Positions 2,549 to 10,047 of a stretch of 64,000 bases of DNA are shown piece after piece (position 1 is the stretch's first letter; every line of letters begins with the position of its first letter). This stretch comes from the human T2T-CHM13v2.0 reference genome, Homo sapiens. Position numbers and translations under genes: made by a program. Below the pieces are notes generated by a model that searched no databases, was not told where the DNA came from, and saw only the letters and a list, made by a program, of their open reading frames with translations. The DNA is taken from assembly GCF_009914755.1 (NCBI RefSeq), contig NC_060934.1. One strand, given 5' to 3'.

Positions 2549-2809
2549 TCAAAACCACAATGAGGGGGGAGGAGCCAAGATGGCCGAATAGGAACAGCTC
2601 CGGTCTACAGCTCCCAGCGTGAGCGACGCAGAAGACGGTGATTTCTGCATTTCCATCTGAGACCGGCTTAAGAAACGGCGCACCACGAGACTATATCCCA
2701 CACCTGGCTCGGAGGGTCCTACGCCCACGGAATCTCGCTGATTGCTAGCACAGCAGTCTGAGATCAAACTGCAAGGCGGCAACGAGGCTGGGGGAGGGGC
2801 GCCCGCCAT
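2549..2809 (-). CDS. ORF0: Variant L1 ORF0 (50 aa ORF0 N-terminus plus 36 aa new C-terminus)
   Basis: ATG at 2809 gives MAGAPPPASLPPCSLISDCC...RRFLSRS (ORF0), then crosses the deletion junction and stops at 2549-2551, at the edge of the TSD. Expression is unknown. Confidence 0.6.
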   Translation of the reverse strand: MAGAPPPASLPPCSLISDCCASNQRDSVGVGPSEPGVGYSLVVRRFLSRSQMEMQKSPSSASLTLGAVDRSCSYSAILAPPPSLWF

Positions 2810-3264
2810 TGCCCAGGCTTGCTTAGGTAAACAAAGCAGCCCGGAAGCTCGAACTGGGTGGAGCCCACCACAGCTCAAGGAGGCCTGCCTGCCTCTGTAG
2901 GCTCCACCTCTGGGGGCAGGGCACAGACAAACAAAAAGACAGCAGTAACCTCTGCAGACTTAAGTGTCCCTGTCTGACAGCTTTGAAGAGAGCAGTGGTT
3001 CTCCCAGCACGCAGCTGGAGATCTGAGAACGGGCAGACTGCCTCCTCAAGTGGGTCCCTGACTCCTGACCCCCGAGCAGCCTAACTGGGAGGCACCCCCC
3101 AGCAGGGGCACACTGACACCTCACACGGCAGGGTATTCCAACAGACCTGCAGTTGAGGGTCCTGTCTGTTAGAAGGAAAACTAACAACCAGAAAGGACAT
3201 CTACACCGAAAACCCATCTGTACATCACCATCATCAAAGACCAAAAGTAGATAAAACCACAAAG
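2565..3264 (+). promoter_or_regulatory. L1HS 5'UTR with internal sense and antisense promoters, shortened to 700 nt
   Basis: YY1 motif AAGATGGCCG at 2577-2586; CpG-rich; junction CCATCTGAG|ACCGGCTTAAG at 2661/2662. Confidence 0.9.
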
Positions 3265-4281
3265 ATGGGGAAAAAACAGAACAGAAAAACTGGAAACTCT
3301 AAAACGCAGAGCGCCTCTCCTCCTCCAAAGGAACGCAGTTCCTCACCAGCAACAGAACAAAGCTGGATGGAGAATGATTTTGATGAGCTGAGAGAAGAAG
3401 GCTTCAGACGATCAAATTACTCTGAGCTACGGGAGGACATTCAAACCAAAGGCAAAGAAGTTGAAAACTTTGAAAAAAATTTAGAAGAATGTATAACTAG
3501 AATAACCAATACAGAGAAGTGCTTAAAGGAGCTGATGGAGCTGAAAACCAAGGCTCGAGAACTACGTGAAGAATGCAGAAGCCTCAGGAGCCGATGCGAT
3601 CAACTGGAAGAAAGGGTATCAGCAATGGAAGATGAAATGAATGAAATGAAGCGAGAAGGGAAGTTTAGAGAAAAAAGAATAAAAAGAAATGAGCAAAGCC
3701 TCCAAGAAATATGGGACTATGTGAAAAGACCAAATCTACGTCTGATTGGTGTACCTGAAAGTGATGTGGAGAATGGAACCAAGTTGGAAAACACTCTGCA
3801 GGATATTATCCAGGAGAACTTCCCCAATCTAGCAAGGCAGGCCAACGTTCAGATTCAGGAAATACAGAGAACGCCACAAAGATACTCCTCGAGAAGAGCA
3901 ACTCCAAGACACATAATTGTCAGATTCACCAAAGTTGAAATGAAGGAAAAAATGTTAAGGGCAGCCAGAGAGAAAGGTCGGGTTACCCTCAAAGGAAAGC
4001 CCATCAGACTAACAGCGGATCTCTCGGCAGAAACCCTACAAGCCAGAAGAGAGTGGGGGCCAATATTCAACATTCTTAAAGAAAAGAATTTTCAACCCAG
4101 AATTTCATATCCAGCCAAACTAAGCTTCATAAGTGAAGGAGAAATAAAATACTTTATAGACAAGCAAATGTTGAGAGATTTTGTCACCACCAGGCCTGCC
4201 CTAAAAGAGCTCCTGAAGGAAGCGCTAAACATGGAAAGGAACAACCGGTACCAGCCGCTGCAAAATCATGCCAAAATGTAA
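3265..4281 (+). CDS. L1 ORF1: LINE-1 ORF1p, RNA-binding chaperone, 338 aa, intact
   Basis: Essentially the L1HS ORF1p sequence: coiled coil, RRM, REKG, ARR and YPAKLS motifs. Confidence 0.98.
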   Translation: MGKKQNRKTGNSKTQSASPPPKERSSSPATEQSWMENDFDELREEGFRRSNYSELREDIQTKGKEVENFEKNLEECITRITNTEKCLKELMELKTKARELREECRSLRSRCDQLEERVSAMEDEMNEMKREGKFREKRIKRNEQSLQEIWDYVKRPNLRLIGVPESDVENGTKLENTLQDIIQENFPNLARQANVQIQEIQRTPQRYSSRRATPRHIIVRFTKVEMKEKMLRAAREKGRVTLKGKPIRLTADLSAETLQARREWGPIFNILKEKNFQPRISYPAKLSFISEGEIKYFIDKQMLRDFVTTRPALKELLKEALNMERNNRYQPLQNHAKM

Positions 4282-7300: not shown

Positions 7301-8172
7301 AGGACATAGGCGTGGGCAAGGACTTCATGTCCAAAACACCAAAAGCAATGGCAACAAAAGACAAAATTGACAAATGGGATCTAATTAAACTAAAGAGCTT
7401 CTGCACAGCAAAAGAAACTACCATCAGAGTGAACAGGCAACCTACAACATGGGAGAAAATTTTTGCAACCTACTCATCTGACAAAGGGCTAATATCCAGA
7501 ATCTACAATGAACTCAAACAAATATACAAGAAAAAAACAAACAACCCCATCAAAAAGTGGGCGAAGGACATGAACAGACACTTCTCAAAAGAAGACATTT
7601 ATGCAGCCAAAAAACACATGAAGAAATGCTCATCATCACTGGCCATCAGAGAAATGCAAATCAAAACCACTATGAGATATCATCTCATACCAGTTAGAAT
7701 GGCAATCATTAAAAAGTCAGGAAACAACAGGTGCTGGAGAGGATGCGGAGAAATAGGAACACTTTTACACTGTTGGTGGGACTGTAAACTAGTTCAACCA
7801 TTGTGGAAGTCAGTGTGGCGATTCCTCAGGGATCTAGAACTAGAAATACCATTTGACCCAGCCATCCCATTACTGGGTATATACCCAAATGAGTATAAAT
7901 CATGCTGCTATAAAGACACATGCACACGTATGTTTATTGCGGCACTATTCACAATAGCAAAGACTTGGAACCAACCCAAATGTCCAACAATGATAGACTG
8001 GATTAGGAAAATGTGGCACATATACACCATGGAATACTATGCAGCCATAAAAAATGATGAGTTCATATCCTTTGTAGGGACATGGATGAAATTGGAAACC
8101 ATCATTCTCAGTAAACTATCGCAAGAACAAAAAACCAAACACCGCATATTCTCACTCATAGGTGGGAATTGA
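4345..8172 (+). CDS. L1 ORF2: LINE-1 ORF2p endonuclease/reverse transcriptase, 1275 aa, intact
   Basis: APE endonuclease motifs (QET, GDFN, IDH, SDH), RT FADD with D702 at 6448-6450, C-terminal CWRGC...HCWWDC; no stops. Confidence 0.98.
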
Positions 8173-10047
8173 ACAATGAGATCACATGGACACAGGAAGG
8201 GGAATATCACACTCTGGGGACTGTGGTGGGGTCGGGGGAGGGGGGAGGGATAGCATTGGGAGATATACCTAATGCTAGATGACACATTAGTGGGTGCAGC
8301 GCACCAGCATGGCACATGTATACATATGTAACTAACCTGCACAATGTGCACATGTACCCTAAAACTGAGAGTATAATAAAAAAAAAAAAAAAAAAAAAAA
8401 AAGAAAAAAAAAAAAGAAATAAATAAATAAAAAAATAAAATAAAAAAAAAAATAAAAATAAAAAAACAAAAAAAACAAAACAAAAAAAAAAAAAAAAAAA
8501 AAAACCACAATGAGATACCATCTCATGCCAGTCAGAATGGCAATTATTAAAAAGTCAAGAAACAACAGATGTTGGTGAGGTTGCAGAGAAATAGAAACAC
8601 TTTTACACTGTTGATGGGAATGAAATTAGTTCAACCATTGTGGAAGATGGTGTGGCAATTCCTCAAAGTTCTAGAACCAGAAATACCATTTGACTTGGCA
8701 ATCCCATTACTGGGTATATGCCCAAAGGAATATAAATCATTCTATTACAAAGATATATGTGTGCATATGTTCATTACAGCACTATTCACAATAGCAAAAA
8801 CATGGAATCAACCCAAATGCCCATCAACGATAGACTGGATAAAGAAAATGTGGTACATATATACCATGGAATACTATGCAGCCGTAAAAAGGAATGAGAT
8901 CATGTCCTTTGCAAGGACATGGATGAAGCTGAAAGCCATTATCCTCAGCAAACTAATGCAGGAGCAGAAAACCAAACACTGCATGTTCTCACTTATAAGT
9001 GGAAGCTGAACAATGAGAACACATGGACACAGGGAGGGGAACAGCACACACTGGGGCCTGTTGGGGGCTGGGGTGGTGGGAGCGAGAGCATTAGGAAAAA
9101 TAGCTAATGTGTGCTGGGCTTAATATCTAGGCGATGGGTTGATAGGTTGCAAATTACCATGGCATACCTTTATCTATGTAACAAACCTTCACATCCTGCA
9201 TTTGTACCCCAGAACTTAAAATAAAAAAAAAATTAAAATTACAAAAAGATTTCAGTGGACAAGGTAATTGCAGATGTGGTAGAAATAGAAACAGAACTAG
9301 AATTAGAAGTGGAGCCTGAATATGTGATTGAATTGCTGCAATCTTATAATCAAACTAGAATTAATGAGGAGCTGCTTCTTATGAATGAGCAAAGAATGTG
9401 ATTTCTTGGTATGGCTTCTACTCCTGGTGAAGAGGCTGTGGACATTGTTGAAATGAAAATAATCAATTCAGAATATAATGCAAACTTAGTAGATAAAGCA
9501 GCATTAGGGTTTGAGAGGAGTGACTCCAATTTTGATATACATTTTATAGTGCTCAAAGAGCATCACGTACTACAAAGAAATCTTTAGTATAGGGAAGAGT
9601 CAATTGATGCAGGAAAATGTATTATTGTCTTATTTTAAGAAATTGCTGCAGTCACCAGAAGTTACCACCTTGATCACTCAGCCTCCATCAACATCAAGAC
9701 AAGAACCTTCCCCAGCAAAAAAGACTACAACTCGCTAAAGGCTCAGATGATCATTAGCATTTTTTTAGCAATACAGTATTTCAAAAGTATGTATATTGTT
9801 TGTTAGACATAATGTTATTGCACACTTAATAGACTACAGTGTAATATAAACATATATTTTATATGCATTGGAAACCAAAAATTAGTGTTACTGGTTTTAT
9901 TGCAATGTTCATTTTATTATGGTGGTCTGAAAATAAAGACACATTATCTCCGAGATGTGTCCGTATTAGTATTAGACATTACTGGAAAATGCCCAGTGGG
10001 TTAACACTCTAATGTTTCAGAAACTTGTTCAATGGGCTCTAATTCTT

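What the first reader, a model, noticed from the sequence alone, without database searches (positions are those of the whole stretch)
2565..8514. Spliced but fully coding-intact young L1HS-Ta1d (5'UTR intron +98 to about +303 removed)
Seen: the 5'UTR is 700 nt rather than about 905, with junction CCATCTGAG|ACCGGCTTAAG at 2661/2662, exactly 97 nt from the element start. The unspliced L1 in this window carries the missing block at 44818-45024, starting with GT (GAG|GTACC). Established: the L1HS block ends in pyrimidine-rich TTTTCAG before ACCGG, +97 is the main L1 5'UTR donor, and spliced integrated L1s (SpIREs 97/622, 97/790, 97/976) are described as promoter-compromised dead ends. Inference: this is a retrotransposed spliced mRNA using a much nearer acceptor. 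It keeps YY1, about 600 nt of downstream UTR, the antisense promoter and both ORFs, so it may still be mobile and could found a lineage with a rewired, CpG-reduced promoter. The older in-window L1PA reads TTTTCCG here (no AG), suggesting the acceptor is evolutionarily young. This isoform may already be catalogued; I cannot check.
Basis: partly seen in the sequence, partly recalled or inferred. Interest (0 to 1): 0.88.

Follow-up and report, generated by a model that had tools for sequence, protein, structure and literature searches.

The report
Spliced young L1 with new acceptor
This is a young, full-length human L1 retrotransposon that was copied from an RNA spliced inside its 5'UTR at an acceptor site not among the four junction classes described in print, so it adds one new kind of "spliced L1 insertion" rather than a new type of element.

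Summary
At window 2565-8514 lies an L1HS with a 14-nt target-site duplication, an A-rich tail of about 120 nt, open ORF1 (338 aa) and ORF2 (1275 aa), and a 700-nt 5'UTR. Intact copies have 905 nt.

The missing block is 205 nt (L1 98-302 in Ta-1d copies). It starts with GT directly after the known donor at position 97. It ends in TTTTCAG in 30 of 30 intact copies examined.

The best reading is a SpIRE (Larson 2018) made from an mRNA spliced 97/303. Larson 2018 describes junction classes 97/622, 97/790, 97/853 and 97/976 only.

In CHM13 the junction is unique. A census of 126 of 135 loci with an altered donor gave 56 of 97/622, 7 of 97/976, 4 of 97/790, one 97/853, one unresolved junction, and this one.

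The acceptor AG is evolutionarily young: 10 of 11 older copies read CCG or CTG there.

The "still mobile, lineage founder" idea has no support. Splicing destroys the RUNX3 core (G98, U99) and rewrites the ORF0 tail. No copy in CHM13 shares this element's 3' variants. No RNA or population data could be checked.

It is a new variant of a known kind, of moderate interest.

The parts
2551..2564 (+). 5' copy of the target-site duplication, AAAACCACAATGAG. The preceding bases TC give a TTTT/GA cut site on the bottom strand.
   Evidence: Read directly. The identical 14-mer lies at 8501-8514.
2565..2661 (+). L1 5'UTR nt 1-97 ('exon 1'). It starts at the canonical GGGGGAGGAG and ends in CTGAG, the exon side of donor G98U99.
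   Evidence: Alignment to 30 genomic copies. Donor identity from Larson 2018.
2661..2662 (+). Splice-type junction GAG|ACC. It joins L1 nt 97 to nt 303, with 205 nt missing.
   Evidence: The 30-mer across the junction is unique in CHM13 at up to 3 mismatches.
2662..3264 (+). The rest of the 5'UTR (L1 303-905). It includes the region around 390-526/450 where transcription factors cluster, and the antisense promoter region.
   Evidence: Alignment. The positions of the transcription-factor hub come from Sun 2018 passages.
2549..2809 (-). Altered ORF0. The antisense ORF starts at the normal ORF0 ATG, keeps its first 50 aa, then crosses the junction and the L1 5' end into the flank. It is 86 aa, against 71 aa in intact copies.
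   Evidence: the intact L010 ORF0 runs 450->235, 71 aa.
3265..4281 (+). ORF1, 338 aa, open.
   Evidence: Over L1 303-1802 there is only one synonymous difference from the majority of 30 copies. It matches PDB ORF1p chains.
4282..4344 (+). 63-nt inter-ORF spacer.
   Evidence: Coordinates. The canonical 63 bp is stated in Larson 2018.
4345..8172 (+). ORF2, 1275 aa, open. The motifs SDH (228), FADD (700) and CWWDC (1143) are present. It has 5 amino-acid differences from solved ORF2p chains: T5N, E447Q, F875L, T1115I, K1221R.
8173..8380 (+). 3'UTR with ACA in GATGACACATTAG and a TGAGAG variant just before AATAAA.
   Evidence: The variant 35-mer has 6 exact copies in CHM13 including this one.
8381..8500 (+). 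A-rich tail of about 120 nt, interrupted by a few G, T and C.
8501..8514 (+). 3' copy of the target-site duplication.
44818..45024 (+). Comparator: the homologous unspliced block in the older in-window L1PA, which still carries the 129-bp ZNF93-type block. It begins with GT and ends in TTTTCCG, with no AG.

Best explanation

Inferred sequence of events: a source L1 was transcribed from its normal start. Its RNA was spliced from the known 5'UTR donor (G98U99) to an AG at 301/302, removing 205 nt. That mRNA was then translated, and L1 endonuclease and reverse transcriptase inserted it into an older L1 fragment on chr10.

Shown: the anatomy (GT..AG limits, canonical 5' start, TSD, A-tail, open ORFs), the uniqueness of the junction in CHM13, and the recent origin of the acceptor AG.

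Inferred: that splicing, not DNA deletion, made the gap. Also inferred is that the promoter is weakened, because the RUNX3 core and 15 of about 40 CpGs are gone, but less so than in SpIRE97/622, because the 390-526 hub is kept.
For: 1. Limits. The gap starts exactly at 98 with GT and ends in CAG in 30 of 30 intact copies.

2. The donor is the one used by all described SpIREs (Larson 2018 sections read).

3. Census in CHM13 of the exact 23-nt donor exon not followed by GT. There were 135 hits and 126 were examined. Every clearly resolved large L1-internal gap starting at 98 ends at a described acceptor: 56 of 97/622, 7 of 97/976, 4 of 97/790 and 1 of 97/853. One junction is unresolved (L115). 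This locus is the only other one. One further locus joins nt 97 to a chemokine-receptor coding exon. The remaining 53 are donor point changes or small indels, and 2 are unclear.

4. Acceptor quality. It is a CAG. It ranks 4th of 91 AGs between L1 130 and 1100 for pyrimidines at -20..-3. It has a 58-nt AG-free zone and a TCAC 28 nt upstream. By the same crude measure the known acceptors rank 1 (976), 13 (622) and 53 (790).

5. Chance. Only 0.023% of possible deletions mimic it.

6. Retrotransposition marks: 14-nt TSD, TTTT/GA site, A-tail.

7. Youth. CpGs outside the gap are undecayed: 25 here against 24-25 in intact copies. There are 5 differences in 1500 nt from the nearest sampled copy.
Against: - No RNA with this junction was seen or could be searched.
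- Larson's RT-PCR on wild-type L1.3 and L1RP 5'UTR reporters in HeLa describes only full-length and 97/790 products. If 97/303 splicing happens, it is rare there.
- It is a single locus in a single genome.
- The 2-nt AG microhomology also fits a DNA deletion or a reverse-transcriptase jump.
- The acceptor ranking is a crude pyrimidine count, not a trained splice model.
- Nine of the 135 census loci were not examined.
- No allele data exist here to exclude an intact-UTR allele at the same site.
Confidence: 0.88

Rival explanations
1. This is a DNA-level or reverse-transcription-level deletion, not splicing. It could be a post-insertion loss of 205 bp by slippage or end joining on the AG/AG microhomology. 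It could be the same deletion in the source element. It could also be a template jump of ORF2p during insertion.
For: The junction has a 2-nt microhomology. It is a singleton. No RNA evidence is available. The RT-PCR products described by Larson 2018 do not include it.
Against: Only 0.023% of possible deletions in this region start at 98 and have GT..AG. None of the 30 sampled intact copies has any large gap in the first 330 nt. Of the 126 census loci, the clearly resolved large L1-internal gaps that start at 98 end at known acceptors.
Confidence: 0.09
2. The element is a SpIRE that is not dead on arrival. Its shortened, CpG-poorer promoter still drives enough RNA for autonomous retrotransposition, so it could seed a lineage.
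For: It keeps nt 1-97 with the start region, the 390-526/450 transcription-factor hub and both ORFs. ORF2p matches solved ORF2p chains at 1270 of 1275 residues. It loses only 205 nt, against 524 in SpIRE97/622. It loses 15 of 39-40 CpGs. A SpIRE with progeny is on record, though that one used a host promoter (PMC13174262 passages).
Against: G98 and U99 of the RUNX3 core are replaced by A and C. U99C alone gave about 18% of wild-type RNA. No second copy of the junction exists in CHM13. No locus shares two of the three tested 3' variants. Five untested missense changes lie in ORF2p. The element lies antisense to the only annotated host transcript, so no host promoter is available to it.
Confidence: 0.2
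3. This is an assembly artefact: a collapsed 205 nt in the CHM13 assembly.
For: None specific. L1HS copies are hard to assemble in general.
Against: The gap has exact splice-site limits, and the rest of the element is colinear and open-reading. An artefact would not be expected to choose GT..AG at the known donor.
Confidence: 0.01

Closest known systems
SpIRE97/622 (Larson et al. 2018, PLoS Biol, PMC5860796)
   Same: It uses the same donor G98U99. The gap lies within the 5'UTR. Both ORFs are kept. It has TSD and poly(A) hallmarks. The RUNX3 core is lost.
   Different: Its acceptor is at 620/621 and it removes 524 nt, including the 390-526 hub. It is abundant (116 in hg38; 56 counted here in CHM13) and found from L1PA6 to L1PA1. 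Its reporter activity was about 7-fold over empty vector, against about 267-fold for wild type, and its retrotransposition was about 7%. The present element removes only 205 nt, keeps the hub and is a singleton.
SpIRE97/790 and SpIRE97/853 (Larson et al. 2018)
   Same: They show that a change in the 5'UTR sequence during L1PA evolution creates or removes a usable acceptor, so that a SpIRE class is confined to certain subfamilies. Here the CCG-to-CAG change plays that part.
   Different: There the change was the 129-bp ZNF93-site deletion, and the spliced RNAs were seen by RT-PCR. Here it is a single base, and no RNA evidence exists.
SpIRE97/976 (Belancio 2006/2008, as cited by Larson 2018)
   Same: Same donor, and it is a retrotransposed spliced L1 RNA.
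   Different: It removes the ORF1 start and needs ORF1p supplied in trans. The present element keeps ORF1 whole.
L1PA3-to-L1PA2 129-bp 5'UTR deletion (ZNF93 escape; Jacobs 2014 as described)
   Same: An internal 5'UTR deletion in an otherwise intact L1, which could change host control.
   Different: That deletion became fixed in a successful lineage and is not at splice sites. This one has splice-site limits and no known descendants.
SpIRE in the RAP1GDS1 intron that produced progeny (PMC13174262)
   Same: A SpIRE that need not be a dead end.
   Different: It relied on a host promoter and splicing in sense orientation. The present element lies antisense to LINC02663.

Membership tests
SpIRE (spliced integrated retrotransposed element) | The internal gap begins right after L1 nt 97, at donor G98U99. 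| tested here: met
SpIRE (spliced integrated retrotransposed element) | The gap ends at an AG in unspliced copies (a GU..AG intron). | tested here: met
   TTTTCAG precedes exon 2 in 30 of 30 copies.
SpIRE (spliced integrated retrotransposed element) | Hallmarks of endonuclease-dependent target-primed reverse transcription (TSD, A-tail, T-rich cut site). | tested here: met
   14-nt TSD, A-rich tail of about 120 nt, TTTT/GA site.
SpIRE (spliced integrated retrotransposed element) | The matching spliced L1 mRNA exists. | not testable with these tools
   No RNA data were available. It is not among the RT-PCR products described in Larson 2018.
SpIRE (spliced integrated retrotransposed element) | The junction belongs to one of the described classes (97/622, 97/790, 97/853, 97/976). 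| tested here: not met
   The junction is 97/303. The described probes are listed. It is therefore a further class, not a member of a described one.
SpIRE (spliced integrated retrotransposed element) | Reduced promoter activity and reduced second-round retrotransposition. | not testable with these tools
   Predicted only. The RUNX3 core is lost and the transcription-factor hub is kept.
L1HS Ta-1d | ACA in the 3'UTR, one G fewer near nt 74, and no 129-bp block. The diagnostic positions are recalled and come from no call. | tested here: met
   GATGACACATTAG. GACGGTG is shared with L004, L010 and L028, while the other sampled copies mostly read GACGGGTG. The 129-bp block is absent. The Ta-1 positions in ORF2 were not checked.
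Coding-intact full-length L1 | ORF1 of 338 aa and ORF2 of 1275 aa are open and the catalytic motifs are present. | tested here: met
   The activity of the proteins was not tested.

The most novel reading that the evidence does not exclude
A single C-to-A change late in L1PA2/L1HS evolution created a new, close-by acceptor. This acceptor lets L1 RNA shed a 205-nt, CpG-rich part of its promoter while keeping the start site, the central transcription-factor hub and both ORFs. The resulting insertion would be a naturally shortened L1 that can still transcribe and copy itself. It would have 15 fewer CpGs, and it would lack the ~150 Myc/CTCF peak seen in one cell line. On this reading it is a SpIRE that is not a dead end.
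Probability: 0.18. Interest if true: 0.62.

Novelty: new variant of a known kind. Interest (0 to 1): 0.42.

Why it matters
SpIREs are held to be dead ends because the described splices remove most of the internal promoter or the ORF1 start. This copy is the mildest splice form seen so far in a coding-intact, young element. It is therefore a natural test of how much of the 5'UTR between 98 and 302 is needed for transcription, silencing and ORF0.

It also gives a second example, after the 129-bp deletion, of 5'UTR sequence evolution creating a new splicing liability. Here the cause is a single base that turned CCG into CAG.

Practically, elements like this are annotated as ordinary full-length intact L1HS. 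Counts of potentially active L1s may therefore include copies with altered promoters.

Tried and rejected
- **Papers not held.** Belancio 2006 and 2008 and Yang 2003 are not held. I could not check whether an acceptor near 303 was predicted or seen there.
- **Text searches.**
  - The searches for '206 bp deletion' and for SA302/SA303/SA304/A301G302 gave nothing relevant.
  - A 2026 pangenome L1 preprint has no mention of splicing in its main text.
  - PMC12016303 has no mention of splicing, internal deletion or UTR.
  - Supplements were not read.
- **Source or sibling element.**
  - A whole-element BLAST scored only 25 of 13,808 candidates, and its loci could not be cut out.
  - The best of those 25, on C17, differs by roughly 10 nt in 5718. 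That figure is my estimate from bit scores.
  - Two full-length copies that share the 3'UTR TGAGAG variant are not Ta-1d and differ at all five 5' marker sites. That variant is therefore recurrent, not a lineage mark.
- **KZFP sites.** The ZNF649 site is the TATA just downstream of the junction and is retained. ZNF649 does not bind L1HS anyway. No position for ZNF765 could be obtained.
- **Other exons joined at 303.** A search for the exon-2 start preceded by AG with a non-C at -3 found only this locus. Joins with C at -3, or without AG, were not searched.
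Full report
**What is there.** The window is CHM13 chr10:9,486,001-9,550,000.
- An L1 begins with GGGGGAGGAG at window 2565 and runs on the + strand to an A-rich tail that ends at 8500.
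- It is flanked by a perfect 14-nt duplication, AAAACCACAATGAG, at 2551-2564 and 8501-8514. The base context gives a TTTT/GA cut site on the bottom strand.
- It sits inside an older L1 fragment.
- ORF1 (3265-4281, 338 aa) and ORF2 (4345-8172, 1275 aa) are open and separated by the usual 63 nt.
- The 5'UTR is 700 nt long.

**The gap.** I fetched 30 of the 241 CHM13 loci that hold the first 30 nt downstream of the junction.
- All 30 read ...TTGCGCTTTTCAG before that 30-mer, except for one point difference 17 nt upstream in L008. Only the window copy reads ...CCATCTGAG.
- The alignment shows a single clean gap in the window copy.
- In two intact Ta-1d copies (L004, L010) the exon side of the donor ends at nt 97. 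The missing block is 205 nt, GTACCGGG...TTTTCAG. Exon 2 starts at 303 and the ORF1 ATG is at 906. Since 700 + 205 = 905, the lengths agree.
- In the naming style of Larson 2018 the junction is therefore 97/303.

**Is it splicing?** Larson et al. 2018 (PMC5860796) was read as abstract, sections 7, 11, 16 and 21, and passages found by term search.
- That paper describes L1 insertions made from RNAs spliced at G98U99 to acceptors at 620/621, 788/789, 851/852 or 974/975. These were found with four junction probes on hg38. A 97/303 junction was not among the probes.
- I made a census in CHM13 of the exact 23-nt donor exon that is not followed by GT. There were 109 hits with a non-G next base and 26 with G followed by a non-T base.
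- I examined 126 of these 135 loci. Nine were not listed and so were not seen.

| Class | Loci |
|---|---|
| 97/622 | 56 |
| 97/976 | 7 |
| 97/790 | 4 |
| 97/853 position (L064) | 1 |
| Unresolved junction about 20 nt upstream of that (L115) | 1 |
| 97/303 (this locus) | 1 |
| Donor point changes or small indels that continue into nt 98 onward | 53 |
| nt 97 joined to a chemokine-receptor-like coding exon (L067) | 1 |
| Unclear (L061, L072) | 2 |

- Apart from L115 and this locus, every large L1-internal gap that starts at 98 ends at a known acceptor.
- A random deletion would seldom look like this. Only 0.53% of the 345,673 possible 20-899-nt deletions in the first 1000 nt have any GT..AG form, and 0.023% start at 98 with GT..AG.
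- The acceptor itself looks usable. It is a CAG. It ranks 4th of 91 AGs for pyrimidines at -20..-3. It has a 58-nt AG-free stretch upstream and a TCAC 28 nt upstream that could serve as a branch site. This is a crude measure, not a trained model.
- Points against: no RNA data could be searched. Larson's RT-PCR on wild-type 5'UTR reporters in HeLa describes only the full-length and 97/790 products. If the splice happens, it is rare there.

**How common, how old.**
- The 30-nt junction is unique in CHM13 at up to 3 mismatches.
- No other sequence is joined to nt 303 behind an AG with a non-C at -3.
- Most L1 daughters are 5'-truncated and would lack the junction, so I also searched three variants near the 3' end. 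The 3'UTR TGAGAG variant has 6 copies, K1221R has 66 and T1115I has 39. No other locus carries two of them, judging by the coordinates.
- Two full-length copies with the 3'UTR variant are not Ta-1d and differ at all five 5' marker sites.
- No descendant and no source element was therefore identified in this genome.
- The element is young. Its 25 CpGs outside the gap match the 24-25 in intact copies. It differs at 5 of 1500 nt from the nearest sampled copy.
- Its markers fit Ta-1d. The diagnostic positions are recalled and come from no call.

**The acceptor is recent.**
- Among 11 copies with a mutated donor that still hold the block, the five with the 129-bp ZNF93-type block gave four readable sites, and all four read CCG or CTG.
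- Of the six without the block, four read CCG, one (L055) reads CAG, and one was not found by my pattern.
- The in-window L1PA reads CCG. The 30 L1HS/L1PA2-like copies all read CAG.
- A single C-to-A change late in the L1PA2/L1HS line therefore created the AG. This parallels Larson's finding that the 129-bp deletion created the 97/790 class.

**Likely consequences.**
- Kept: nt 1-97 with the normal start, the region around 390-526/450 where most factors bind (Sun 2018, PMC6004460, passages), the ZNF649 TATA site just after the junction (bioRxiv 429563, passages), and both ORFs.
- ORF1 over L1 303-1802 has one synonymous difference from the majority of 30 copies.
- ORF2p differs at 5 of 1275 residues from solved ORF2p chains. 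The SDH, FADD and CWWDC motifs are present.
- Lost or changed:
  - G98 and U99 are lost. Larson 2018 places them in the RUNX3 core and shows that U99C alone lowers L1 RNA to about 18% of wild type.
  - 15 of 39-40 5'UTR CpGs are lost.
  - A Myc/CTCF peak near 150 seen in MCF-7 cells is lost.
  - The last 21 residues of ORF0 are lost. The ORF now reads 86 aa through the junction into the flank.
- My inference is a promoter weaker than wild type but stronger than SpIRE97/622. That form gave 7-fold against 267-fold over empty vector, and 7% retrotransposition.
- The element lies antisense to LINC02663, so a host promoter cannot rescue it. Such a rescue is reported for a SpIRE in RAP1GDS1 (PMC13174262, passages).

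**Verdict.**
- The core interpretation, a retrotransposed spliced mRNA with a nearer and young acceptor, is well supported (about 0.88).
- The idea that the element is mobile or could found a lineage is open and, on present evidence, unlikely (about 0.2 for autonomous activity).
- It is a new variant of a known kind.
- I could not read Belancio 2006/2008 or Yang 2003, nor any supplements. An earlier mention of this acceptor cannot be excluded. My text searches found none.

Noticed in passing
L067 (G000:C6:140011071-140011494), junction at locus position 223/224: L1 5'UTR nt 1-97 is joined exactly at the same donor to a non-L1 coding sequence, with an ATG 9 nt later. Its 63 translated residues match chemokine-receptor N-termini in the PDB (CCR7 E=7e-9, CXCR4). 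By recall it resembles ACKR4. It looks like a retrocopy of an L1-to-host-exon chimeric mRNA.
   Followed up: partly
L072 (G000:C10:63536054-63536477): L1 nt 1-97 is followed by about 70 nt of non-L1 sequence and then a second L1 5' end starting near nt 9. The origin was not worked out.
   Followed up: no
L115 (G000:C10:20518954-20519037): The donor exon is joined to sequence inside the 129-bp block of older L1PA, about 20 nt upstream of the published 97/853 acceptor. The in-window older L1 has no AG at that point. It may be another rare acceptor or a plain deletion.
   Followed up: no
window 44737-50904: A second, older full-length-looking L1PA. It still carries the 129-bp ZNF93-type block (about 45497-45625) and reads CCG at the site that became the acceptor AG.
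   Followed up: partly
L003 (G000:C1:71390252-71393281), first 60 nt of the L1: This full-length L1HS-like copy carries a 13-nt tandem duplication (GAACAGCTCCGGT) near nt 25-50 of the 5'UTR, close to the YY1 region.
   Followed up: no
window 2842 and 3153: Two 5'UTR bases are private to this element among the 30 sampled copies: C at 2842 and T at 3153. The second lies 8 nt into the exon that follows the 97/790 acceptor.
   Followed up: no
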